IMG/VR virus record: IMGVR_UViG_3300024503_000015
Span: 206,182 to 270,181 of that record
From: a virus
Length of the DNA stretch: 64,000 nucleotides
Reading direction: 5' to 3' (one strand)
Shown: positions 33,542 through 53,042 of the stretch, one piece after another
Position numbering within the stretch: position 1 is the stretch's first letter
Layout: each line of letters starts with the position of its first letter
The notes under the pieces: model-generated
Told to the model about the DNA's origin: nothing
The model's input: only the letters and a program-made list of their open reading frames with translations
Database searches by the model: none
Translations under genes and position numbers: made by a program

Positions 33542-33616
33542 TGGTCCCGCTACTACGAATCGAACGTAGACTTACTCTTTAGGAGAGAGTCGTTCTATCC
33601 ATTGAACTATAGCGAG
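33542..33616 (-). tRNA. tRNA-Arg (anticodon CCT)
   Basis: Hand-folded cloverleaf. Acceptor CTCGCTA/TAGCGGG, T-arm CTACG-TTCGATT-CGTAG, anticodon loop CTCCTAA, encoded CCA. Confidence 0.6.
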
Positions 33617-33626
33617 GGAGGGAATT

Positions 33627-33734
33627 TGGTGTGACCGGGAGGGTTCGAACCTCCAAGGACGGCATATCGCCTAGTCCCGACCCACGGAGTGTTTCACAAC
33701 AGTCCTGGAGCTCTGCCTATTCGCTCACGGTCAC
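33627..33734 (-). tRNA. atypical 108 nt tRNA-like gene with ~50 nt structured insert in the anticodon/variable region
   Basis: Perfect acceptor GTGACCG/CGGTCAC, D-arm, T-arm GGAGG-TTCGAAC-CCTCC and CCA. Middle has AGGAC...GTCCT enclosing GNRA-capped hairpins. No canonical anticodon loop. Confidence 0.35.
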
Positions 33735-33765
33735 ATACTAAGTATATAACCTTTTCAGCAGTTTG

Positions 33766-34221
33766 TCAACGGGTTATGAGGTATTCGTAGTTCACTGTGT
33801 TGTCGTTTTCTTGCAACACACAGGCACCATTTCTGATATGGAACTTGTAGGCCATTTCAGTTTTTGGGCTAAGTGTTACAAAACGATTAACAGTTGGGAA
33901 AAGTTCTTTTATTTGATCCACTACACCAAAAAGTAGCTCTGCGGCCGCACCCGGCGCATAACTCCAAATTGTATAGAAGATTGCTGTAGTTGGTTCTGTG
34001 GGTGTTTTAGCCAAATCTTCAACAGTTGTTGGCACAAAATCGTGCAGACTAACACAGACCATTGCACGTGGTTTTTCGCCTTCTACAGTGGTGGCGACAA
34101 ATCTGCTACCGCTAACACGAAATTCTTTGGGAATTTCTGGACGTACTGGATCATCCTTGATATAGTCAAGTAATGGATTAGTAGTTTCTCTGATTAATGT
34201 TAGCATATAACTATTTAGCAT
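33766..34221 (-). CDS. hypothetical protein embedded in tRNA array
   Basis: 151 aa ORF between tRNA genes. Confidence 0.45.
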   Translation of the reverse strand: MLNSYMLTLIRETTNPLLDYIKDDPVRPEIPKEFRVSGSRFVATTVEGEKPRAMVCVSLHDFVPTTVEDLAKTPTEPTTAIFYTIWSYAPGAAAELLFGVVDQIKELFPTVNRFVTLSPKTEMAYKFHIRNGACVLQENDNTVNYEYLITR

Positions 34222-34244
34222 TTAGTGGGCAGATTATGGTGTTA

Positions 34245-34319
34245 TGGTGGTAACGGTGAGATTCGAACTCACACCTTGCTCCGTATGAAGGAGGTGCACG
34301 ACCATTATGCTACGTTACC
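34245..34319 (-). tRNA. tRNA-Met (anticodon CAT; Met or lysidine-Ile not distinguishable)
   Basis: Acceptor GGTAACG/CGTTACC, T-arm GTGAG-TTCGAAT-CTCAC, anticodon loop TTCATAC, CCA. Confidence 0.6.
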
Positions 34320-34858
34320 AGATTATTAGTAAGATGTCCCGAGAGTTTTGGTTTGGGTAAGGCCATCCGACGGTGCGATTCGTCCCTCTCTTTGTCTAGC
34401 CCAACATGAAGTTCTTGTAGTCTCAATCCGCTCACCTTGCACCGGCGCTTGATACATATACTCTACAGCATTAAAGTTTATAACTTCAATTAACAAAAAC
34501 TTCCGATCTTTGTTAACTCCTTGCGGATGCTTTTAGAACCTTAACTACTTACTAATAAAAGGGGTGGAGAGAGAAAGGCAAGTAATAGACTGGACAATGT
34601 ACAAGCGGGCTCTATAAAGATACCCTTAACAAGTCACAAGGCGCAAAGCACAGGGACCTGTATATTTCCAGTTAGCAACTCACAAAGTCGATTAATATAT
34701 AGAACTGGTTCACACAAGCACGAAACGTTTTCAAGACGTTTTGCCAGTAGTTGATGTTCGGTCTCTATAAGAGATCAAACCTTAGGCATGTAGCCTAAGT
34801 CTGTCTATCCTAATCTCCTTCTCTACTCCAGGCTCGGGCTTTCGCCTTTGCCAAAACT

Positions 34859-34932
34859 TGGTTGCGGGACCTGGAATCGAACCAGGATCTAGAGCTTATG
34901 AGACTCTTGAGTTACCGTTTCTCTATCCCGCG
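34859..34932 (-). tRNA. tRNA-Met (anticodon CAT) with C1-A72 mismatch, initiator-like
   Basis: Acceptor CGCGGGA/TCCCGCA with an unpaired 1-72, anticodon stem-loop AGAGT-CTCATAA-GCTCT, T-arm CCTGG-TTCGATT-CCAGG, CCA. Confidence 0.55.
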
Positions 34933-35269
34933 ATAACTTTATAGGTGCTCTCTGTTCGACTCGAACGAAACCTGCTGAGCTCCTTATCTTCCTGGCACTT
35001 TCGGTGGGTAGTCGACTTAGCACCTAACTCGTGTTATCCAGTGTAGTTCAGCTCAGAGAGCATTTATAAAGTGTCTAGCCACTCCCACCACAGGAGCCCT
35101 AAACCGAGCTGTTACTCTGTCCACTAGCCTTTCCATTTAGACGGTGCTGAGGTCCGCCTTTGTGATTTCTCAAGTCGCTTTAAACAAGCCTTGCGGTAGA
35201 TCCAATGCACCGAGCCATTAAGGTGTAGCAATTACCTAACTCTATCACGCTGAGTTAACGCGGGGTCTG

Positions 35270-35842
35270 TTACAGTAAACCTTCTGCTTGCAGAACTGCT
35301 TCTGTTTTGTCAGACAATTGGATAGTTGTCTGAACATTTAACTCTAGGATTTCATCCTGAAGTTTTTGTTTCTGCTTTTTAGCAGTTGCCACTCTACGAC
35401 GGAATCCGTCTAGATCTTCACGAGTGAGCACACTAGTGTCTACTGTGTCGTTGTAGCCATAGATGCTACGACGGTTTTCGCTTTTGTCGTTACGGATCTT
35501 GTCCAAACGACCTGCTACAACCTTTGCGCTTTCGCGAACGGTCTTACTAGCCAATCCGTTGTAGAATTGGATTTGTTTTTCTAGATGTGCAACATCGGCC
35601 AATCTAGTGTCGATTCTAACTTCTGTGTTAGCACCGCTGACACTTTTACGAATCTCGTAAAGTGCTTCCACTAACGCATCTCTGCGTGTAAGGTTGTCGC
35701 AGAGTGTTCCTGCAACTTTGGAAATTTCTTGTTCCGCTTCTTGGAACTCGTTGATTTTTACTGTGGTCTCAAACTGGAAACCTTTGACGGTATCGTTGAT
35801 ACTGTTCTGAAGTGCATTTGCCTTACGTAGGGAGATATTCAT
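35270..35842 (-). CDS. hypothetical coiled-coil protein
   Basis: Trimmed to ATG 35842 so it does not overlap tRNA-Gly. Confidence 0.45.
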   Translation of the reverse strand: MNISLRKANALQNSINDTVKGFQFETTVKINEFQEAEQEISKVAGTLCDNLTRRDALVEALYEIRKSVSGANTEVRIDTRLADVAHLEKQIQFYNGLASKTVRESAKVVAGRLDKIRNDKSENRRSIYGYNDTVDTSVLTREDLDGFRRRVATAKKQKQKLQDEILELNVQTTIQLSDKTEAVLQAEGLL

Positions 35843-35908
35843 TTGTTTTTCCTTTAATGTTTCTATTATACAATCTTTTAAATCTAAATCAATGCCTTTT
35901 GGCAAAAC

Positions 35909-35984
35909 TGGAGCGGGAGACGAGGTTCGAACTCGCGACATTTACCTTGGCAAGGTAATGCTCTACCAACTGAGCTACTCCCGC
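35909..35984 (-). tRNA. tRNA-Gly (GCC)
   Basis: GCGGGAG/CTCCCGC, D-arm GCTCAGTTGGTAGAGC, anticodon TTACC-TTGCCAA-GGTAA, CCA. Confidence 0.7.
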
Positions 35985-36032
35985 ATATGAAGAACCTAAG
36001 GCAAAGTTTATAACTTATCCAAAGGCCATATA

Positions 36033-36108
36033 TGGTACACGGTACGGGAATCGAACCCGTCTTACTGACGTGAAAGGCCAGTGTCCTAAACCGATAGACG
36101 AACCGTGC
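36033..36108 (-). tRNA. tRNA-Glu (TTC)
   Basis: Acceptor GCACGGT/ACCGTGT, anticodon loop CTTTCAC, T-arm ACGGG-TTCGATT-CCCGT, CCA. Confidence 0.65.
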
Positions 36109-36114
36109 ATTACT

Positions 36115-36190
36115 TGGCTCCCCAGGGTGGGATCGAACCACCGACACCCTGATTAACAGTCAGGTGCTACTACCGCTGAGCTACTAGGGA
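36115..36190 (-). tRNA. tRNA-Asn (GTT)
   Basis: TCCCTAG/CTGGGGA, anticodon loop CTGTTAA, T-arm GGTGG-TTCGATC-CCACC, CCA. Confidence 0.7.
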
Positions 36191-36197
36191 ATAAACT

Positions 36198-36272
36198 TGG
36201 TACCTGGTGACAGTTTCGAACTGCCGACCCTCTCGGTGTAAACGAGACGCTCTACCACTGAGCTAACCAGGC
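36198..36272 (-). tRNA. tRNA-Val (TAC)
   Basis: GCCTGGT/ACCAGGT, anticodon loop TTTACAC, CCA. Confidence 0.7.
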
Positions 36273-36282
36273 AAACTAACAT

Positions 36283-36359
<77 letters not shown>

Positions 36360-36364
36360 AATGA

Positions 36365-36440
36365 TGGAGCGGGAGGCGAGAGTTGAACTCGTCTATTTCA
36401 GTTTGGAAGACTGACGTGTAACCACAAACACTTCACCCGC
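36365..36440 (-). tRNA. tRNA-Gly (TCC)
   Basis: GCGGGTG/CTCCCGC (one mismatch), anticodon TCAGT-CTTCCAA-ACTGA, CCA. Confidence 0.6.
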
Positions 36441-36446
36441 ATATTT

Positions 36447-36530
36447 TGGTGCCCCAGGAGAGACTCGAACTCTCACGGCTCTCGCCACTGGCTTCTAAGA
36501 CCAGCGTGTCTACCATTCCACCACCAGGGC
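36447..36530 (-). tRNA. tRNA-Leu (TAG), type II
   Basis: Anticodon loop CTTAGAA, 13 nt variable arm, T-arm GAGAG-TTCGAGT-CTCTC, CCA. Confidence 0.65.
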
Positions 36531-36531
36531 A

Positions 36532-37335
36532 TTAACTGACAATACTATTTAAGTATTCCTGAATTGTCGTTGCAATTTTTTCTTGCACAGACAATTTAAT
36601 TTTTGCATTCTCACCATTAGCACTCATATACTGTTTTCCGTATTCAGTACAATCTATACCAGTGTGCATAAACTCTTTAAAAATTTCTGAGTTGTCAGGA
36701 TTAGGATCTCCAAACCTAACAGTCGTCCATTTAATATTTTGAGAATCTAAAAACTTAATTAACATATTGTAACCATTTCTATGTCTACGAATATGCCAAT
36801 CTTTGCTTTGACTTTTTTGAAAAGCAATACCGTTTAATCGCTTTTTATGAACTTCAATTGGATATCTATCTGGATTCCATTCTCCGTCTACATAATTTTC
36901 ACGTTCAAATACATATCGTTGATTGTTATATTTGAAACTGTGTGCTATATGACTAAACGTGTAATCTGTAACTAATACATGATCCGGTTTAGGATTCTCT
37001 GCTAGGTACTGTTTTAATCTTTTGTGATGACCTATAAAATGTCCACCGTTAATAGATATATTAACTACATTGGAAACATTTAAGAAATTAGGCCATGCGG
37101 CTTTTTGTTCTTCTTCCCATAGATAATGCCAAACAACATTTTCCATATTGCCATTGGGCATAGGTGTTGTAACATTGTTTTCTTTTCTATGTTTTAGATA
37201 CCATTTAAAAACACTTCTAAAATCATTATGGAAACGTAGACTCCAAGTCCTCGGAGCATCGTCGTTGACTATGTCACCAGCCAAACAATTATTGCCATTA
37301 CTTTGGCAATCTCCTAAAATTAAAAGTGTTTTCAT
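36532..37335 (-). CDS. hypothetical protein embedded in tRNA array
   Basis: 267 aa ORF. LLILGDCQSNG N-terminus, possibly SGNH-like. Confidence 0.5.
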   Translation of the reverse strand: MKTLLILGDCQSNGNNCLAGDIVNDDAPRTWSLRFHNDFRSVFKWYLKHRKENNVTTPMPNGNMENVVWHYLWEEEQKAAWPNFLNVSNVVNISINGGHFIGHHKRLKQYLAENPKPDHVLVTDYTFSHIAHSFKYNNQRYVFERENYVDGEWNPDRYPIEVHKKRLNGIAFQKSQSKDWHIRRHRNGYNMLIKFLDSQNIKWTTVRFGDPNPDNSEIFKEFMHTGIDCTEYGKQYMSANGENAKIKLSVQEKIATTIQEYLNSIVS

Positions 37336-37349
37336 ATTAATAGTTATCT

Positions 37350-37426
37350 TGGCGCACCGTAGGGGACTTGAACCCCTGGCCTCCGACGTGACAGGCCGGC
37401 GCTCTGACCAACTGAGCTAACGGTGC
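37350..37426 (-). tRNA. tRNA-Asp (GTC)
   Basis: GCACCGT/ACGGTGC, anticodon CCGGC-CTGTCAC-GTCGG, T-arm AGGGG-TTCAAGT-CCCCT, CCA. Confidence 0.7.
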
Positions 37427-37564
37427 AAATTCTATTCTGAAACACACTAACCAACTACCAGAAGCATTTATAATGCCGTTATTCGGTTCGAGCTAATGTG
37501 TTTTAGAATAGTGCTAACGCTGAGATTATACGTTAGCCAATAGTGCCTCTAGCATTATAGTCAG

Positions 37565-37798
37565 CCTTGCGAGCCAACCTTCTCTAGACATCCACATAAG
37601 CCATTACTGTACCTATGTCCACTATCAGCATCGCCGTTTTTAAAGACAGGCAGTAGTCTTGTCGCCATATGCTATTCTACGCTATCTACTCCGTTGACCT
37701 TGCGAGCCATTCAGCGGCGCTAACCACTTACGAAACTTCCAGCATAAACAGATTTCACCTTGCGAGCTACGTCTGACTCGATTACCTTGCGGCTCGAG
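37565..37798. repeat. four dispersed copies of CCTTGCGAGC(C) motif in an ORF-free spacer
   Basis: Copies at 37565, 37698, 37758 and 37785. Related CCTTGCGG copies at 34521, 35180 and 38183. Confidence 0.5.
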
Positions 37799-37844
37799 TA
37801 TTAGATGCTTTTCACATATGACCGAGGCAGTCTTTGCATTTTAT

Positions 37845-37916
37845 AATCGATAGTTGGGATCGAACCAACAGTCCATTGCTTAAGAGGCAATTGCGTTACC
37901 ATTACGCTATATCAAA
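37845..37916 (-). tRNA. tRNA-Lys (CTT)
   Basis: Anticodon ATTGC-CTCTTAA-GCAAT, T-arm GTTGG-TTCGATC-CCAAC. No encoded CCA. First acceptor pair weak. Confidence 0.55.
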
Positions 37917-38566
37917 CCTACCGCGATGAGCTGCCTCTGTTGCTCAATAACCTTTTGGATTACTGAATACAACTCACCACATACCTTTTGTCTCGCGGAC
38001 TACTCAGTGATATTTCACGATCAATGTCCTGCATCAAAACAGTCCACTAACCATTAATATTGCATACAAGCCCTTAGGAGCGACCCCTTGGACAAATACA
38101 CTACCCTTTCTCATACCAATTCGCAAGTTGGTTTTGTTAGGAAGTCAGCACCACCCGTTACTTTTCATGCACCCTGGTTCCCTTGCGGGCCAGTCGATAC
38201 ACATTCTTTCCCTAACACTTGCTTCATTGTTACATCCACCGGTCTTCTCAGTGAACGCTACCTCGCGGTAGTGAGCAGGCTTGTTTACATGAACCATTAC
38301 TGGCGGAGTTGCGTAGGCTTACCTCCTTTGGGTTGATCACTCAACTTATTCTTCGTCAACGGCGAACCGCCAACAGGATAATAAACTACCCTTAAATTTT
38401 TACCATTAAAAAATAACATTACACCCTATGGGATGAAACGTATTTCTGAGTGGAGTTCGATTCTCCTCATAAGCCATTGTTCACGGTTTTCTCAGAAGGG
38501 TAAGATGGCCTTATCCTTCATAAGTCTATGCGTCCATAGACGATACCCGTCAATGCTATTTCTTAA

Positions 38567-38652
38567 TGGTGGATGCGGCTGGAGTCGAACCAGCAGTGCC
38601 GTAAGGCGGCGGATTTACAGTCCACTGGGGTTACCAATTTTCCTACACATCC
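38567..38652 (-). tRNA. tRNA-Tyr (GTA), type II
   Basis: GGATGTG/CGCATCC, anticodon GTGGA-CTGTAAA-TCCGC, long variable arm, CCA. Confidence 0.6.
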
Positions 38653-38739
38653 ATATCTGCTTGAAATTTTTAAAGAACTAGGTTAATTTCTTAACTAGTC
38701 TCTATTGTATATGAACTTTAGAAACTAGTCAAGACATTT

Positions 38740-38834
38740 TGGCAGTGAGTAAGGGATTCGAACCCTTGATCCCCGTTTTTGCAGGAATGCCTTCTTAGCA
38801 GGAAGGTGCCTTCGACCAGCTCGGCCAACTCACT
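38740..38834 (-). tRNA. tRNA-Ser (GCT), type II
   Basis: AGTGAGT/ACTCACT, anticodon CCTTC-CTGCTAA-GAAGG, long variable arm, CCA. Confidence 0.65.
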
Positions 38835-38878
38835 ATATTTGTATTATACGATCAACTGTTAAACAAGTCAACACCTTT

Positions 38879-38968
38879 TGGCCGAAGCGGTGAGATTCGA
38901 ACTCACGGACCCTTTCGGATCGTCTGTTTTCAAGACAGGTGCAATAAACCGGACTCTGCCACGCTTCG
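38879..38968 (-). tRNA. tRNA-Ser (TGA), type II
   Basis: CGAAGCG/CGCTTCG, anticodon CCTGT-CTTGAAA-ACAGA, long variable arm, CCA. Confidence 0.65.
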
Positions 38969-39014
38969 TTGTTTTACTTGTATAATTCGTTGTAGATAGA
39001 ATCTGCTACAAATG

Positions 39015-39092
39015 TGGTACCCCTGCTCCGATTCGAACGGAGAGAACTTCTCCTTTTGAGAGAGACGACTTTACCAATTTGTCCACAGGGGT
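39015..39092 (-). tRNA. tRNA with anticodon CAA (Leu-decoding) but short type-I variable loop
   Basis: ACCCCTG/CAGGGGT, anticodon TCTCT-CTCAAAA-GGAGA, 6 nt variable loop, CCA. Identity uncertain. Confidence 0.45.
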
Positions 39093-39097
39093 ATATC

Positions 39098-39171
39098 TGG
39101 TGCTCAAGGAAAGAATCGAACTTTCGATTGTGTCGTACCAAGACACTGGTATACCATTTACCTACAAGAGC
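39098..39171 (-). tRNA. tRNA-Thr (GGT)
   Basis: Anticodon GTGTC-TTGGTAC-GACAC. Acceptor stem has two U-U mismatches. CCA. Confidence 0.5.
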
Positions 39172-39173
39172 CT

Positions 39174-39245
39174 TGGCGCCTCTGAGTAGATTCGAACTAC
39201 TATAACCTGGTTTAGAAGACCTGGCACTGCTCCATCAGCAGAGGC
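39174..39245 (-). tRNA. tRNA-Arg (TCT)
   Basis: GCCTCTG/CAGAGGC, anticodon loop CTTCTAA with one A-A mismatch in the stem, CCA. Confidence 0.5.
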
Positions 39246-39246
39246 A

Positions 39247-39323
39247 TGGTACCCTTGGTTGGATTCGAACCTACACACAACGGATTTTAAATCCATTCGC
39301 ATTACCAATTAGCGTACAAGGGC
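39247..39323 (-). tRNA. tRNA with anticodon TAA (Leu-decoding) but type-I architecture
   Basis: GCCCTTG/CAAGGGT, anticodon ATGGA-TTTAAAA-TCCGT, 5 nt variable loop, CCA. Confidence 0.45.
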
Positions 39324-39330
39324 ATAATTA

Positions 39331-39406
39331 TGGTGCCGCCCCTTGGGATCGAACCAAGTTCCTCGGTGCTTCAAACCGGTGCAATGACCACATTTGCTAA
39401 AGCGGC
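39331..39406 (-). tRNA. tRNA-Phe (GAA)
   Basis: GCCGCTT/GGGCGGC (G-U pairs), anticodon loop TTGAAGC, T-arm CTTGG-TTCGATC-CCAAG, CCA. Confidence 0.6.
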
Positions 39407-39412
39407 GATATT

Positions 39413-39487
39413 TGGGGTGAAGCCGGGAATCGAACCCTGCCTTACTGTTTCACAGACAGCCGTGCGGACCACTACACTAGCAACACC
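39413..39487 (-). tRNA. tRNA-His (GTG) with extra 5' G-1
   Basis: G-1:C73 pair, anticodon GCTGT-CTGTGAA-ACAGT. Acceptor has two U-U mismatches. Confidence 0.6.
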
Positions 39488-39489
39488 AT

Positions 39490-39566
39490 TGGCCGGCCCT
39501 GAGAGACTCGAACTCCCAACCTCCAGTTTCGAAGACTGGCACTCTAATCCATTGAGTTAAGGACCG
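39490..39566 (-). tRNA. tRNA-Arg (TCG)
   Basis: CGGTCCT/AGGGCCG, anticodon CCAGT-CTTCGAA-ACTGG, CCA. Confidence 0.6.
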
Positions 39567-39573
39567 TTAAAAT

Positions 39574-39647
39574 TGGCAGGCCTACCAGGACTCGAACCTG
39601 GAACGACTGAGTCAAAGTCAGTTGTGTTACCATTACACCATAGGCCA
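39574..39647 (-). tRNA. tRNA-Gln (TTG)
   Basis: Anticodon ACTGA-CTTTGAC-TCAGT, T-arm CCAGG-TTCGAGT-CCTGG, weak 1-72 pair, CCA. Confidence 0.6.
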
Positions 39648-39873
39648 ACAGATTGAATTTGTAAGTAGTTGCCCCATCGTTATAGCAACCATTCACCCAT
39701 GTATATAAAGCCGGCTGGGACTCGGTACGTCACTTGGGATACTAGTCCAGTTAGCAACCAATCTGCAGGGATCTTCCGATCCCCCGGGAGTTGAACCCGT
39801 CCCCTTTTACTATTAAGGTAGTTCGAACTTACCTACAATAGCGTGACATTCTCTTGCTGACACTTACAAAACT

Positions 39874-39946
39874 TGGTGCCCCAGGATGGAATCGAACCAC
39901 CACACCCTGCTTACAAAACAGGACCTCTACCACTAAGGATACAAGG
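39874..39946 (-). tRNA. tRNA-Thr (TGT)
   Basis: GCCCTTG/CTGGGGC, anticodon CCTGT-TTTGTAA-GCAGG, CCA. Confidence 0.6.
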
Positions 39947-39953
39947 GCAAAAT

Positions 39954-40031
39954 TGGTCTCCACGGTACGATTCGAACGTACAGCCTCCTGACTCCAGATC
40001 AGGCCGTCTACCAGATTGACATTACGCAGAG
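39954..40031 (-). tRNA. tRNA of uncertain identity (loop TCTGGAG, C at position 33)
   Basis: Good acceptor CTCTGCG/CGTGGAG and T-arm GTACG-TTCGAAT-CGTAC with CCA. Anticodon loop is non-canonical. Confidence 0.35.
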
Positions 40032-40041
40032 ATAAAAATAA

Positions 40042-40117
40042 TTGCGACCGAAGGACTCGAACCTTCGCGGTAATCTAGAATGCCCCGGCAAGGCCGGTTA
40101 ACCCACCATTGTCGCAA
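40042..40117 (-). tRNA. tRNA-like element whose anticodon arm is replaced by a 5 bp/3 nt hairpin
   Basis: Perfect acceptor TTGCGAC/GTCGCAA, D-arm and T-arm CGAAGG-TTCGAGT-CCTTCG. Middle CCGGC-CTT-GCCGG hairpin. No CCA. Confidence 0.35.
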
Positions 40118-40120
40118 ATT

Positions 40121-40195
40121 TGGTGGAGGCCGAGGAAATCGAATCCTTCTAGACATCTTCCTTGCAAGGGAAGACCGTAGCCCACTACTGCCCCC
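40121..40195 (-). tRNA. tRNA-Ala-like (TGC) with truncated D-arm and degenerate T-arm
   Basis: Anticodon CTTCC-CTTGCAA-GGAAG, T-loop TTCGATT with a stem mismatch, D region only 12 nt, CCA. Confidence 0.35.
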
Positions 40196-40280
40196 AAATT
40201 GGTGTTAGTTTCTATACCACCCATTGAAACTAACAAACATTGAGAGAACATGGATGAACCCACAAGATCTCTATTTGCTC

Positions 40281-40355
40281 TGGTATAGCGTACGGGGATC
40301 GAACCCGCCTAGTCACCTTGAAAGGGTGATGACCTCCCCAGAAGTCGAACGCTAT
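40281..40355 (-). tRNA. tRNA-Glu (TTC), second copy
   Basis: ATAGCGT/ACGCTAT, anticodon TCACC-CTTTCAA-GGTGA, CCA. Confidence 0.55.
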
Positions 40356-40361
40356 GTAAAT

Positions 40362-40435
40362 TGGTTCCTGGACCGAGAATTGAACTCAGAATGACCGGTT
40401 ATCAGCCGATTGTTATACCATTTAACTATCCAGGA
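40362..40435 (-). tRNA. tRNA-Ile (GAT)
   Basis: TCCTGGA/TCCAGGA, anticodon ATCGG-CTGATAA-CCGGT, CCA. Confidence 0.65.
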
Positions 40436-40617
40436 ATAATACTATACAAAAAGAAACTAACGACAATGCGCTATGCACCCAGAGTCTATAGTTCCTGGCT
40501 GTGGTTAGTTTGTTTTTATACACTACCATATGGAAGCACTCTTATGCCTTTTTCGTCATAAGATGGTGGCCCGTCCTTACTACTGACGCTATGCGACCAG
40601 TTAAGAATGCTTTCATA

Positions 40618-40692
40618 TGGTAGGGGCACAGAGAATCGAACTCTGATTTACGGGTTAAAAGCCCGCTACTTTAACCATTAAGTTATACCCCC
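40618..40692 (-). tRNA. tRNA-Lys (TTT)
   Basis: GGGGGTA/TGCCCCT, anticodon GCGGG-CTTTTAA-CCCGT, CCA. Confidence 0.65.
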
Positions 40693-40695
40693 ATA

Positions 40696-40771
40696 TGGTC
40701 CCTGCTGTGAGATTCGAACTCACACCTCATTGATTAAGAGTCAAGTGCGCTACCATTGACGCTAAACAGGG
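40696..40771 (-). tRNA. tRNA-Lys (CTT), second copy
   Basis: CCCTGTT/AGCAGGG, anticodon loop CTCTTAA, T-arm GTGAG-TTCGAAT-CTCAC, CCA. Confidence 0.5.
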
Positions 40772-40942
40772 TTGTACGTATTGATTTGATTTTACGTGCC
40801 AACCCTAGACCATACGGGAGATCTAGAGTGACACTAACGTTTAGCACGTTTCATGCTACTCTCCTTTTAATATTTTTTCAAAACTTGATACAACACGAAC
40901 ATTATAACTAACACTACAAGTACTGCCATAATATTCTCCTTA

Positions 40943-41032
40943 TGGTCCCCCGTTGAGGAATCGAACCTCATCCTGGACCTTATCTAGATTAATCGGTTAT
41001 AAGCCGACCTGCTCTCCATGAGCTAACGGGGG
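40943..41032 (-). tRNA. type II (long variable arm) tRNA with anticodon TAT
   Basis: Perfect acceptor CCCCCGT/ACGGGGG, anticodon GTCGG-CTTATAA-CCGAT, ~21 nt variable arm, CCA. Confidence 0.45.
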
Positions 41033-41040
41033 ATATAACC

Positions 41041-41118
41041 TGGAGCAACGGGTCAGATTTGAACTGACGGTTTTACGGATTTGCAATCCGTTGCATTGGG
41101 CCTCTCTGCCACCGTTGC
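41041..41118 (-). tRNA. tRNA-Cys (GCA)
   Basis: GCAACGG/CCGTTGC, anticodon ACGGA-TTGCAAA-TCCGT, T-arm GTCAG-TTCAAAT-CTGAC, CCA. Confidence 0.65.
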
Positions 41119-41123
41119 ATTAT

Positions 41124-41198
41124 TGGCGTACCCCCAGGGACTCGAACCCCGACTAGCAGTTTTGGAGACTGTCGTGCTGCCATTAACACTAGGGATAC
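41124..41198 (-). tRNA. tRNA-Trp (CCA)
   Basis: GTATCCC/GGGGTAC, anticodon loop CTCCAAA, CCA. Confidence 0.65.
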
Positions 41199-41203
41199 AT
41201 AAC

Positions 41204-41282
41204 ACTCTCTTTCGAAAGTGTGTATTAAAGCATACTACTCATCGGCTACTGCCATTTGATTGTTCGGCAGTATGCTTTAATA
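41204..41282. repeat. palindrome plus 15 bp perfect inverted repeat (nested hairpin) at tRNA-array boundary
   Basis: CTTTCGAAAG palindrome. GTATTAAAGCATACT...AGTATGCTTTAATAC enclosing inner stem TACTGCC/GGCAGTA. Confidence 0.5.
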
Positions 41283-41398
41283 CGCTACCTTTTTACACAT
41301 TCTAGTTATCGCCTAGAACTTACCATCCGGTAGGCCGCCCACATTAAGCCCATGTTTTACGTGCAGGCAGGGTCGCGTTCCCTATAACACGTTTGAGA

Positions 41399-41569
41399 TT
41401 AGTCTTGCTCTACGAGCTCAACTTCTCTCTTGTAAAGTGCTGTGTGATAAGCACGAGCACGATTAAACTTTTCTTCGATGAGTTTTTCAAAAGCATCGTC
41501 GTCCAGTTCATGCTCACTTAGCACTTTGGCACTTTTCTGTTTTCTAAAATCTTCAAAATTCATTTTCAT
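41399..41569 (-). CDS. small hypothetical protein
   Basis: 56 aa ORF (MKMNFEDFRKQKSAKVLSEHELDDDAFEKL...) just past the tRNA array. Below the track cutoff. Confidence 0.2.
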   Translation of the reverse strand: MKMNFEDFRKQKSAKVLSEHELDDDAFEKLIEEKFNRARAYHTALYKREVELVEQD

Positions 41570-46321: not shown

Positions 46322-46395
46322 TGGTGCGCTAGACAGGAATCGAACCTGCTATCGGGAGTTTAGAAGTCCCTGCCTATCCATTGAGCTTCAAGCGC
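46322..46395 (-). tRNA. isolated tRNA, best fold gives anticodon CTA (amber-suppressor-like); alternative register TCT
   Basis: Acceptor GCGCTTG/CTAGCGC, T-arm GCAGG-TTCGATT-CCTGT, CCA. Anticodon stem GGGA/TCCC with loop TTCTAAA. Confidence 0.4.
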
Positions 46396-52027: not shown

Positions 52028-52104
52028 GTGATCTTTCTATGAAATAAAACTGCGATACTGTGTATTATAGGCTCGGACAGGGCATCTGTCAATGTGTTTG
52101 GTAA

Positions 52105-52135
52105 AATAAAAAAGGGCCCGAAGGCCCTTTGGTTG
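52105..52135 (-). terminator. rho-independent terminator (second copy of GGGCCCGAAGGCCC hairpin)
   Basis: Hairpin followed by TTTTTTATTTT on the minus strand. Confidence 0.55.
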
Positions 52136-52395
52136 TTTGGGTTACAAGGTAAGTCCTACCCCGGAGTTGCAGTTTCTTAGGCTGCTACTAGACCATTGTC
52201 GGCTGTGAAGCCTTCAACAGTGAAGTACTCAAATGTAGATGCGTTTGCATTTACTAGTTTTGCTTGATTTACGGTCATCGCCTACCGTGTTGCCGTCTCT
52301 ACTATCTACCCCTGTCGAAACCATGGCAGGCCCATCATAAAAACACAATACCAAAGTAAATTTACAATGAATACCAAAGTAAATTTATGTCCTTA

Positions 52396-52435
52396 TGGTG
52401 GACCTGGCGGGAGTCGAACCCGCGTCCAGAAGTCC
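52396..52435 (-). other. tRNA 3'-half-like minihelix (T-arm + acceptor + CCA) lacking D and anticodon arms
   Basis: GCGGG-TTCGACT-CCCGC T-arm, then CAGGTCC-A-CCA, with a complementary GGACTTC only 5 nt upstream. Confidence 0.3.
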
Positions 52436-52463
52436 TTCGCTTTGAAGGGATTACAACAATTCT

Positions 52464-53042
52464 TTAAACGCCTGCCTTTGCTAATGTGCCAAATATCCAA
52501 GGTTTTGGATCTAAGTCAATTGTCCAAGATGTCGGTTCATTTCTCATATCTTTTTTGTACACAATATTTATTTGGTCGTGTGTTAGTTTGACTAAGAAGC
52601 CGTCTGTTAATTGTTTTAGATTAGCCTTAACTGTTGCGTAATCTACAAAGGCAACAGCGAATGTTCCTTTAATTTGGACTATCATTAAATGATTAAAAAC
52701 TTTGTCTAGTGTAGTTCTTTGATTCTTACTTTCGTAAACATTTTTTAATTTAAGACTGATTGTCTTTTTAGGAGTTCCTGACTTTGCGTAGAACAAAGGT
52801 TCGTTGCCAGTTTTAACTTCTACGTCGCCATTGGTCCAATCGGTAAATTTTATATCGTAATCGCGAACGTCAGTCCACTCGATGTTCTTTTTATGATTAG
52901 ATAATTGCATTGCCGCAATAATGAATTTTTCTTTCATCATTCGATTTGTGGATTCATTTAATACTGTCTGATGACAGATGTTATTACAAGCATCTGAAAA
53001 CTTGTCAATATCTACCCAATCTAAAAATTCATTGTACTGCAT
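52464..53042 (-). CDS. hypothetical protein
   Basis: 192 aa ORF. Confidence 0.5.
   Translation of the reverse strand: MQYNEFLDWVDIDKFSDACNNICHQTVLNESTNRMMKEKFIIAAMQLSNHKKNIEWTDVRDYDIKFTDWTNGDVEVKTGNEPLFYAKSGTPKKTISLKLKNVYESKNQRTTLDKVFNHLMIVQIKGTFAVAFVDYATVKANLKQLTDGFLVKLTHDQINIVYKKDMRNEPTSWTIDLDPKPWIFGTLAKAGV

What the first reader, a model, noticed from the sequence alone, without database searches (positions are those of the whole stretch)
37430..38566. ORF-free spacers carrying a repeated CCTTGCGAGC motif and a lone plus-sense T-arm-like element
Four copies of CCTTGCGAGC(C) occur within 230 nt (37565-37798), with further copies at 34521, 35180 and 38183. About 1.1 kb here, split by tRNA-Lys at 37845-37916, has no credible ORF. 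A GGAG-TTCGATT-CTCC T-arm-like hairpin is present in plus orientation at 38449-38467, opposite to every tRNA gene. The motif may be a processing or endonuclease site, a promoter element for tRNA transcription or part of a structured RNA.
Basis: seen in the sequence. Interest (0 to 1): 0.6.

Follow-up and report, generated by a model that had tools for sequence, protein, structure and literature searches.

The report
GOLLD RNA gene carrying embedded tRNA-Lys
The "ORF-free spacers" are one large, already-known phage non-coding RNA (GOLLD) read on the opposite strand with a tRNA-Lys gene inside it, and the repeated motif is the cap of several of its hairpins, so the finding is real but belongs to a known family.

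Summary
All tRNAs are on the minus strand, where CCTTGCGAGC reads GCUCGCAAGG. Rfam places a full-length GOLLD RNA match at 37517-37980 (207 bits, gathering score 150, E 4e-57), with tRNA-Lys(CUU) in GOLLD's variable internal linker. The 414 nt upstream (37981-38394) are its 5' domain: in 12 related sequences, 63 of 93 pairs show compensatory changes, and 95.8% of cells pair against about 39% in slid controls. Three motif copies are an invariant CU-CGCAA-GG cap on helices whose outer stems covary. The fourth copy, and the copy at 38181, are GCAA tetraloops. CUCGCAAGG is about 300-fold enriched inside GOLLDs on the sense strand only, so it is not a promoter or processing signal. The plus-strand "T-arm" is the tip of a minus-strand hairpin in a separate conserved leader, and its T-loop look is not conserved. 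The copy at 35189 lies in a different RNA, and the copy at 34519 is not conserved in related contigs. GOLLD in phage tRNA islands with an embedded tRNA is already described, so this is a new member of a known kind. Side result: a roughly 205-nt structured RNA (35062-35270) with no Rfam family recurs in about 95 uncultured viral contigs.

The parts
37517..38394 (-). GOLLD RNA gene (5' domain, 3' domain and embedded tRNA), about 878 nt
   Evidence: Rfam RF02032 covers 37517-37980. Homology in 12-21 related sequences starts at about 38394-38427 and ends at about 37490-37524.
37981..38394 (-). GOLLD 5' domain, 414 nt; not covered by the Rfam model
   Evidence: RNAalifold on alignment A3 gives 93 pairs, 63 with compensatory changes. 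95.8% of cells pair against 38-42% when slid; covariation score 0.573 against 0.07-0.10; 0 of 500 shuffles reach the observed values. The solved env-38 GOLLD has a 5' domain of the same size, 416 nt.
37517..37980 (-). GOLLD conserved 3' domain
   Evidence: 207.2 bits against a gathering score of 150, E 4e-57, model positions 1-416 of 416. An independent RNAalifold fold of 12 relatives gives 87 pairs, 55 with compensatory changes, and the same architecture.
37844..37917 (-). tRNA-Lys(CUU) embedded in the GOLLD internal linker
   Evidence: ARAGORN; Rfam tRNA 62.5 bits. It lies in the unpaired stretch of the GOLLD model, about positions 60-145. A tRNA at the same position is present in all 13 homologs checked.
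37560..37579 (-). Motif copy 1: hairpin GGUUGGCU-CGCAA-GGCUGAC
   Evidence: The outer stem covaries (UUGGCU/GGCUGA, UAUGCU/GGUGUA, CAGACU/GGUCGG) while the cap CUCGCAAGG is invariant in 10 of 12 sequences.
37695..37709 (-). Motif copy 2: hairpin UGGCU-CGCAA-GGUCA
   Evidence: Model positions 250-264. The stem covaries: GGAC/GUUC in L054 and GGUU/GAUC in L003.
37749..37775 (-). Motif copy 3: hairpin CAGACGUAGCU-CGCAA-GGUGAAAUCUG. The CUCGCAAGG cap is part of the family consensus.
   Evidence: The Rfam consensus reads 'ggcuCGCAAggcc' at model positions 190-202. CGCAAG is invariant in all 12 relatives and the outer stem covaries.
37776..37799 (-). Motif copy 4 (7-mer only): hairpin ACUCGAGCC-GCAA-GGUAAUCGAGU, a plain GNRA tetraloop
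   Evidence: Stems and loops vary together: GCC-GCAA-GGU, GGC-GCAA-GCU, CAC-GCAA-GUG, GUG-GUAA-CAC, GGC-GAAA-GCU, and GCC-UUCG-GGU in CcrMagneto.
38175..38193 (-). 5'-domain copy (7-mer only): hairpin CUGG-CCC-GCAA-GGG-AACCAG
   Evidence: It forms helices 11 and 12 of alignment A3, which covary. The GCAA-capped hairpin is present in most homologs.
37432..37511 (-). Long imperfect stem-loop directly 3' of GOLLD (CUAUUCUAAAACACAUUAG / UUAGUGUGUUUCAGAAUAG), before tRNA-Asp
   Evidence: MFE -31.1 kcal/mol, z -4.2, 0 of 200 shuffles fold as well. The same stem occurs in L070 (z -6.4) and L064, and the 5' arm is conserved in 9 of 12 relatives. A role in processing or termination is inferred only.
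38395..38566 (-). Leader between tRNA-Tyr and GOLLD: a separate conserved module, not part of GOLLD. It ends in a terminator-like hairpin at 38422-38435.
   Evidence: It is conserved in L197, L135 and L217 beside tRNAs and without a GOLLD. Terminator-like site.
38452..38466 (-).
   Evidence: Homologs have GGG-AAGCA-CCC or CUGG-UAGC-CUAG at this position. The outer tier changes from UGAG/CUCA to GGAG/CUCC. There is no plus-strand tRNA.

Best explanation

Shown here:
- It has a 414-nt structured 5' domain and the conserved 3' domain.
- tRNA-Lys(CUU) sits in the variable single-stranded linker that follows the first hairpin of the 3' domain.
- The fourth copy, and the one in the 5' domain, are ordinary GCAA tetraloops.

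Inferred from solved GOLLD structures, not shown here:
- The adenosine-rich GNRA-type caps act as donors for A-minor or tetraloop-receptor contacts.
- Those contacts fix the tertiary fold and join protomers into the 10-14-mer RNA nanocage.
- The linker, and so the tRNA, faces the cage interior.

The biological role of GOLLD is unknown. The leading idea in the literature is sequestration or timed release of the embedded tRNA or other cargo during lytic growth.
For: - Rfam match: 207.2 bits against a gathering score of 150, E 4e-57, full model 1-416.
- The tRNA lies in the model's unpaired linker.
- 5' domain: 63 of 93 pairs compensatory; 95.8% paired against about 39% when slid.
- 3' domain: 55 of 87 pairs compensatory, with all four motif copies on helix caps. 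Covariation fixes the loop register.
- CUCGCAAGG: 53 sense copies in 21 GOLLDs (2.7/kb), 0 antisense, 4 in 461 kb outside.
- The same arrangement, GOLLD with an embedded tRNA inside a tRNA array, occurs in Sinorhizobium phage Phosso, Caulobacter CcrMagneto and at least 11 IMG/VR contigs.
- Phage context: RIIA (E 2e-138), baseplate and tail fibre proteins.
- Literature: GOLLD lies in phage tRNA islands, tRNAs sometimes occupy the linker, and the linker is inside a 14-mer cage (PMC12286853). The interfaces are minor-groove contacts, kissing loops and one tetraloop-receptor contact, and a tRNA-Phe is embedded in Mycolicibacterium GOLLD (PMC12990946). A Mycobacterium '32 tRNA cluster' holds a GOLLD gene with a pseudo-tRNA inside it (PMC6582537).
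Against: - No expression data, RNA ends or structure exist for this sequence.
- The role of the CGCAA caps in assembly is extrapolated. I could not map them to the numbered loops (L14-L27) of the solved structures.
- The 5' domain cannot be aligned to the solved env-38 5' domain. nhmmer gives no hit, and threading gives 28 of 66 pairs (35 of 71 in the second alignment mode) against 24-32 pairs in shifted controls. Its homology to the canonical P1-P13 is therefore unproven.
- The window lacks the consensus sigma-70 promoter that three homologs have at the 5' edge. Whether it is transcribed on its own or cut out of the array transcript is open.
Confidence: 0.93

Rival explanations
1. The motif is a DNA or RNA signal used across the tRNA island: a promoter element, or a site for an RNase or homing endonuclease.
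For: It is repeated within 230 nt in an ORF-free stretch next to tRNA genes. Weaker 7-mer matches occur in two other spacers.
Against: All copies lie in hairpin loops of covarying helices of one RNA. The motif is strand-specific and about 300-fold enriched inside GOLLD, with almost none beside the other 30 tRNAs or elsewhere. It does not resemble sigma-70 boxes, and the promoter scan finds nothing at these sites. The 7-mer at 35189 is a helix strand in a different RNA.
Confidence: 0.03
2. GOLLD here works mainly in cis as a holder for its own tRNA. The cage keeps tRNA-Lys(CUU) away from RNase P and RNase Z until a trigger opens it, which would time the supply of that tRNA. This is the 'inhibited storage' idea. 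It is a rival about function, not about identity.
For: A tRNA occupies the linker in the window and all 13 homologs checked. The linker faces the cage interior in solved structures, and the idea is raised in PMC12990946. The window also carries a second, free tRNA-Lys(CUU) at 40696-40771, so the embedded copy is not needed simply to supply that tRNA.
Against: Many GOLLDs, including the solved env-38 and Streptococcus agalactiae RNAs, have no embedded tRNA. In Mycobacterium no expression of the embedded pseudo-tRNA was detected. The anticodon drifts among Lys, Asn, Arg and Thr in this clade, which argues against a codon-specific role.
Confidence: 0.25
3. The plus-strand T-arm-like hairpin is the remnant of an inverted tRNA gene or a tRNA-like element used on the plus strand.
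For: There is a perfect 4-bp stem with a TTCGATT loop, and a 13-nt identity to the T-arm of tRNA-Lys(UUU).
Against: Similarity ends at 13 nt. ARAGORN and Rfam (E<=1) find no plus-strand tRNA. Two other such plus-strand hairpins occur by chance in the window. In homologs the position holds a hairpin with other stems and loops that makes sense on the minus strand.
Confidence: 0.03

Closest known systems
GOLLD RNA family (Rfam RF02032; Weinberg et al. 2009, recalled from memory; cryo-EM of env-38, PDB 9MEE, PMC12286853)
   Same: Full-length match to the conserved 3' domain. A 5' domain of about 415 nt. A variable internal linker. Location in a phage tRNA island. A CGCAA-capped helix that is part of the family consensus.
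   Different: The 5' domain cannot be aligned with that of env-38 by sequence. This RNA carries four (C)GCAA caps in its 3' domain, one of them on an insertion relative to the Rfam model, and lacks the consensus GCAA loop at model positions 237-244. It has an additional long 3' stem-loop. env-38 has no embedded tRNA.
Mycobacterium/Mycolicibacterium GOLLD inside a '32 tRNA cluster' with an embedded (pseudo-)tRNA (PMC6582537; Morgado et al. 2020 as cited in PMC12990946)
   Same: A GOLLD gene inside a cluster of about 32 tRNAs, with tRNA genes on both sides and a tRNA within the GOLLD linker.
   Different: Actinobacterial chromosome or prophage context, and a tRNA-Phe or pseudo-tRNA. Here the context is a T4-like phage and the tRNA is an intact-looking tRNA-Lys(CUU) scoring 62.5 bits.
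GOLLD of Caulobacter phiCbK-like phages (CcrMagneto and relatives) and of Sinorhizobium phage Phosso
   Same: Same sub-clade. They align across both domains and carry a homologous tRNA at the same linker position: Lys-CUU in CcrMagneto. The phiCbK group is already listed in Kretsch et al.'s GOLLD alignment.
   Different: About 67-69% identity over the blastn-aligned stretches only. The GenBank records annotate the tRNA but not the GOLLD. Phosso's embedded tRNA reads as anticodon UCU and is missed by ARAGORN.
ROOL RNA (RF03087)
   Same: A large ornate phage RNA near tRNA islands that also forms a homo-oligomeric cage with an internal disordered linker.
   Different: Unrelated sequence and fold. 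No ROOL match appears in 33600-41400, even at E<=1.

Membership tests
GOLLD RNA (RF02032) | Covariance-model match to the conserved 3' domain at or above Rfam's gathering score | tested here: met
   207.2 bits against 150, E 4e-57, model 1-416 of 416, not truncated.
GOLLD RNA (RF02032) | 3'-domain secondary structure maintained by compensatory changes | tested here: met
   RNAalifold on 12 relatives gives 87 pairs, 55 with double changes. It includes the long-range helix and the multi-branch core of the Rfam model.
GOLLD RNA (RF02032) | Variable single-stranded linker after the first 3'-domain hairpin, which may hold a tRNA | tested here: met
   tRNA-Lys at 37844-37917 falls in the unpaired model region, about positions 60-145. 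The same holds in all 13 homologs checked.
GOLLD RNA (RF02032) | Large structured 5' domain of about 400 nt upstream of the 3' domain | tested here: met
   414 nt; 93 pairs, 63 compensatory; 95.8% paired against about 39% when slid.
GOLLD RNA (RF02032) | 5' domain homologous to the canonical P1-P13 of the published consensus | tested here: inconclusive
   nhmmer profiles give no hit to env-38. Threading gives 28 of 66 pairs (35 of 71 in the second alignment mode) against 24-32 pairs in shifted controls. Only a shared 11-mer, ACGGGUGGUGC, follows a GNRA hairpin in both. The literature calls the 5' region less conserved.
GOLLD RNA (RF02032) | Encoded in phages or prophages, usually beside tRNA islands | tested here: met
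   33 ARAGORN genes in the window (32 tRNAs and a tmRNA), 31 of them in the island. RIIA, baseplate and tail-fibre ORFs. The homologs are IMG/VR viral contigs with tRNA arrays.
GOLLD RNA (RF02032) | Self-assembly into a closed homo-oligomeric nanocage (10-14 protomers) | not testable with these tools
   Needs cryo-EM or mass photometry of the transcript.
ROOL RNA (RF03087) | Covariance-model match | tested here: not met
   No ROOL match at E<=1 in 33600-41400, nor at E<=10 in 34300-35290.
tRNA or tRNA-like element on the plus strand (for the T-arm-like hairpin) | Cloverleaf, or at least acceptor plus T-arm, detectable by ARAGORN or the Rfam tRNA model | tested here: not met
   No plus-strand call at 38400-38500. 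Similarity to tRNAs is limited to 13 nt.
Sigma-70 promoter element (for the motif) | -35 and -10 hexamers with 16-18 nt spacing at the motif sites | tested here: not met
   The promoter scan of 37300-38750 finds no minus-strand site at any motif copy.

The most novel reading that the evidence does not exclude
The GOLLD itself is a known kind. The more novel reading concerns the rest of this phage lineage's tRNA island, which looks like a mosaic of further conserved structured RNAs with no Rfam family.

The clearest is a roughly 205-nt element at 35062-35270 on the minus strand:
- It has 95 copies in 94 uncultured viral contigs, 70 of them non-redundant.
- 28 of 39 predicted pairs are compensatory.
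- It always lies co-oriented inside tRNA arrays.
- It is absent from 50,697 deposited phage genomes.
- It is practically absent from cellular genomes.

It may be an undescribed class of phage RNA that travels with tRNA arrays, often within 15 kb of this GOLLD clade. In addition, this GOLLD clade appears always to carry a tRNA whose anticodon drifts among Lys, Asn, Arg and Thr. That offers a natural test set for the idea that GOLLD cages store tRNAs.
Probability: 0.5. Interest if true: 0.6.

Novelty: new member of a known kind. Interest (0 to 1): 0.28.

Why it matters
For the finding itself the value lies in correct annotation. About 1.1 kb of apparently empty phage DNA is explained as a GOLLD RNA, plus a leader and a 3' stem-loop. 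The eye-catching repeat turns out to be a structural signature, the CU-CGCAA-GG helix cap, and not a regulatory signal.

GOLLD is one of the few natural RNAs known to form protein-free nanocages, and its function is unknown. This clade has at least 14 sequences that always carry a tRNA in the cage-facing linker, and its cap motif is invariant. That gives concrete constructs for two tests: whether the caps are assembly contacts, and whether the cage controls tRNA maturation.

The additional unannotated RNA modules in the same tRNA island suggest that phage tRNA arrays hold more structured RNAs than current libraries list.

Tried and rejected
- Thermodynamic folding of the spacers alone gave only weak z-scores: -2.9 for the minus strand of 37981-38566, -1.8 and +0.7 for the tRNA-Met spacers. 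It could not decide anything, and comparative data were needed.
- Megablast of 20 kb of the window against GenBank phages gave no match, so there is no close cultured relative.
- The 14-base scan AAAANGCAAAGACTG returned mostly chance hits and had to be filtered with nhmmer.
- The inverted-repeat finder with seed 9 missed the 3' tail stem because of mismatches. Folding showed it.
- I tried to prove homology of the 5' domain to env-38 by nhmmer and by threading. Neither gave a signal.
- I tried to assign the motif hairpins to the numbered loops L14-L27 of the cryo-EM papers. This is not possible from text without the figures, so it is left unassigned.
- A promoter at the window's GOLLD 5' edge was not found, although three homologs have one.
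- Morgado et al. 2020 (PMC7549688) could not be read because it is not held.
- Pfam and PHROGs gave nothing useful for the two ORFs inside the tRNA island, at 35270-35941 and 36532-37335.

Full report
**What is in the sequence.**
ARAGORN finds 33 RNA genes in the window, all on the minus strand. They include a 31-tRNA island at 33542-41198, and tRNA-Lys(CUU) at 37844-37917.

The exact 10-mer occurs three times (37565, 37698, 37758) against 0.07 expected. The 'fourth copy' (37785) and the 'further copies' (34519, 35189, 38181) share only the 7-mer CCTTGCG. That 7-mer is not significantly enriched in the window: 9 found against 4.45 expected. No ORF longer than 82 aa lies in 37430-38566.

**Identity.**
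Rfam at gathering thresholds reports a full-length GOLLD match (RF02032) at 37517-37980 on the minus strand. It scores 207.2 bits against a gathering score of 150, E 4e-57, model positions 1-416. In the alignment, tRNA-Lys lies in the long unpaired linker that follows the first hairpin of the model. All four clustered motif copies lie on hairpin loops.

The window is phage DNA. Its large ORFs match RIIA (E 2e-138), baseplate wedge and tail fibre families. It has no close relative among deposited phages.

**Relatives.**
A distant blastn search found the same region in two groups:
- Sinorhizobium phage Phosso.
- The Caulobacter phiCbK-like phages.

Both carry a GOLLD above the gathering score with a tRNA inside it. 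A pattern scan of IMG/VR, filtered with nhmmer, gave 11 viral contigs with GOLLD above the gathering score, ten of them full-length. Every one holds a tRNA inside the match and sits in a large tRNA array. After a later scan, 21 sequences (the window included) with GOLLD-length homology were in hand.

Homology consistently begins at about window 38394-38427 and ends at about 37490-37524.

**The upstream 'spacer' is the GOLLD 5' domain.**
The Rfam model covers only the conserved 3' half. The 414 nt from 38394 to 37981 align across 12 sequences.
- RNAalifold predicts 93 pairs, 63 of which keep pairing through changes on both sides.
- 95.8% of cells are paired, against 38-42% when partners are slid.
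- The covariation score is 0.573 against 0.07-0.10, and 0 of 500 shuffles reach the observed values.

The solved env-38 GOLLD has a 5' domain of residues 1-420 and a 3' domain of 421-833, so the sizes agree. Direct homology to the env-38 5' domain could not be shown:
- nhmmer gives no hit.
- Threading gives 28 of 66 pairs (35 of 71 in the second alignment mode), against 24-32 pairs in shifted controls.

This fits the literature's description of a 'less conserved 5' region', but I record it as inconclusive.

**What the motif is.**
An independent fold of the 3' domain of 12 relatives gives 87 pairs, 55 of them compensatory. It reproduces the Rfam architecture and places all four copies on helix caps.

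Covariation fixes the register:
- Copies 1-3: the outer stems vary in a compensatory way. Examples are UUGGCU/GGCUGA, UAUGCU/GGUGUA and CAGACU/GGUCGG, and GGAC/GUUC or GGUU/GAUC in copy 2. The cap CU-CGCAA-GG stays nearly invariant. The same cap is part of the family consensus ('ggcuCGCAAggcc').
- Copy 4: an ordinary GNRA tetraloop whose stem and loop change together (GCAA, GUAA, GAAA, and UUCG in CcrMagneto).
- The 38181 copy: a CCC-GCAA-GGG tetraloop in the 5' domain.

Across 21 GOLLDs, CUCGCAAGG occurs 53 times on the sense strand (2.7/kb), never antisense, and 4 times in 461 kb outside.

**How it probably works.**
This part is inferred. Cryo-EM of other GOLLDs shows closed 10-14-mer cages held together by three kinds of contact (PMC12286853; PMC12990946):
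- kissing loops.
- loop-to-helix minor-groove (A-minor) contacts.
- one tetraloop-receptor contact.

The disordered linker faces the cage interior. GNRA-type loops are the classical donors of such contacts, which is established RNA structural knowledge. The invariant caps are therefore most likely tertiary or quaternary contact points. I could not assign them to the numbered loops of those papers.

The function of GOLLD is unknown. The literature suggests storage or shielding of the embedded tRNA.

**Ends.**
- 5' end: three homologs have 11/12 sigma-70 promoters whose -10 box ends 6-7 nt before the first conserved base. This supports a 5' end near window 38394. The window has no such match, and instead has a terminator-like hairpin at 38422-38435.
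- 3' end: directly after the last GOLLD hairpin comes a long imperfect stem at 37511-37432 (z -4.2). It is shared with L070 (z -6.4) and L064. It may be a processing or termination structure, but that is inference only.

**The T-arm-like element.**
GGAG-TTCGATT-CTCC at 38452-38466 lies outside the GOLLD. It sits in a 170-nt leader that is itself conserved beside tRNAs in L197, L135 and L217.

At that position the homologs have GGG-AAGCA-CCC or CUGG-UAGC-CUAG, within an outer tier that changes from UGAG/CUCA to GGAG/CUCC. So this is a minus-strand hairpin, and the plus-strand T-loop look is peculiar to the window.

It is one of three such plus-strand hairpins in the window. Its similarity to tRNAs is limited to 13 nt, and no tRNA is called there.

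**The two distant 'copies'.**
They lie in other ORF-free spacers around tRNA-Met (34859-34932).

The one at 35189 sits in a roughly 205-nt element at 35062-35270:
- Its exact 21-mer CGACTTGAGAAATCACAAAGG occurs in 101 IMG/VR contigs.
- 70 non-redundant copies give 39 pairs, 28 of them compensatory. 96% of cells pair against about 39% when slid.
- In this element ACCG is the 3' strand of a helix with CGGU, so the 7-mer match to the GOLLD motif is coincidental.
- Rfam has nothing there, even at E<=10.

The one at 34519 is a UCC-GCAA-GGA hairpin that is not conserved in relatives.

**Comparison with what is known.**
All of the following are already published:
- GOLLD in phage tRNA islands.
- tRNAs in its linker.
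- A '32 tRNA cluster' containing a GOLLD gene with an internal pseudo-tRNA.

The phiCbK-group GOLLDs are also in Kretsch et al.'s own alignment. The finding is therefore a new member of a known family, detectable by a standard Rfam scan.

**Verdict.**
The novelty is low and the interest modest. The more novel material is the side observation of further conserved RNA modules in the same tRNA island.

Noticed in passing
window 35062-35270 (minus strand): A roughly 205-nt conserved structured RNA element ('B1') with no Rfam match, even at E<=10. Its exact 21-mer occurs in 101 IMG/VR contigs. There are 95 copies in 94 loci, 70 of them non-redundant. 28 of 39 pairs are compensatory, and 96% of cells pair against about 39% when slid. 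All 1261 tRNAs in those loci are on the same strand as B1. The nearest downstream tRNA lies within 300 nt in most cases and is mostly Gly-UCC (37) or Met-CAU (21). It is absent from 50,697 GenBank phages, and only a 558-nt MAG scrap matches among cellular genomes.
   Followed up: partly
window 34940-35064 (minus strand): A segment between B1 and tRNA-Met with a T-arm-like hairpin (TTCG-TTCGAGT-CGAA at about 34969) and possible acceptor-like pairing (GGUGCU...AGCACC). It is conserved in L032 and in many contigs as a B1, this segment, tRNA-Met unit. ARAGORN and Rfam do not call it a tRNA.
   Followed up: no
window about 34545-34830 (minus strand): A second conserved non-coding module of about 280 nt, between the two tRNA-Met genes. 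It recurs in about 12 viral contigs, not always next to B1. Its structure was not analysed.
   Followed up: no
window 39648-39873 (minus strand): A 225-nt spacer in the tRNA island conserved in L046 (E 1e-44), L085 and L019. It contains a T-arm-like hairpin at about 39799. No family was assigned.
   Followed up: no
window 37844-37917 and the same position in L070, L085, L004, L019, L064, L054, L003, L032, L008, L046, L038, L001, L002: The GOLLD-embedded tRNA is homologous across the clade, but its anticodon differs. Lys-CUU: window, L070, L032, CcrMagneto. Asn-GUU: six contigs. Asn-AUU: L046. Thr-UGU: L008. Arg-UCU: L038, and Phosso by eye. The window also has a second, free tRNA-Lys(CUU) at 40696-40771.
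   Followed up: partly
L064 1974-2002, L004 3959-3987, L008 12161-12133: Near-consensus sigma-70 promoters (11/12) end 6-7 nt before the first conserved GOLLD base in three homologs. This implies independent transcription there. The window has no equivalent.
   Followed up: yes
window 46322-46395 (minus strand): A tRNA with anticodon CUA, outside the main island. ARAGORN labels it 'Pyl'; it is effectively an amber-suppressor tRNA. This could indicate TAG read-through or recoding in this phage.
   Followed up: no
window 52086-52549 (minus strand): A phage-encoded permuted (two-piece type) tmRNA: Rfam tmRNA_permuted 138 bits, beta_tmRNA 129 bits. Permuted tmRNAs also lie beside the GOLLD in CcrMagneto and L085.
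   Followed up: no
window 39958-40030, 40065, 40147 (minus strand): A weak extra tRNA-like match (Rfam 31.6 bits, not called by ARAGORN) and two further T-arm-like hairpins in the 39949-40280 spacer. They may be degenerate tRNAs.
   Followed up: no
L001 (Sinorhizobium phage Phosso PV764938, 33.0-34.0 kb): The GenBank record annotates nothing under its GOLLD and embedded tRNA. ARAGORN also misses that tRNA, while Rfam scores it at 54 bits.
   Followed up: partly
window about 38140-38160 versus env-38 GOLLD (supplement of PMC12286853): An 11-mer, ACGGGUGGUGC, preceded by a GNRA-capped hairpin, is shared between this 5' domain and the env-38 5' domain. About 0.04 such matches are expected by chance. 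It hints at a conserved 5'-domain core, but the two occurrences are not at the same relative position.
   Followed up: partly
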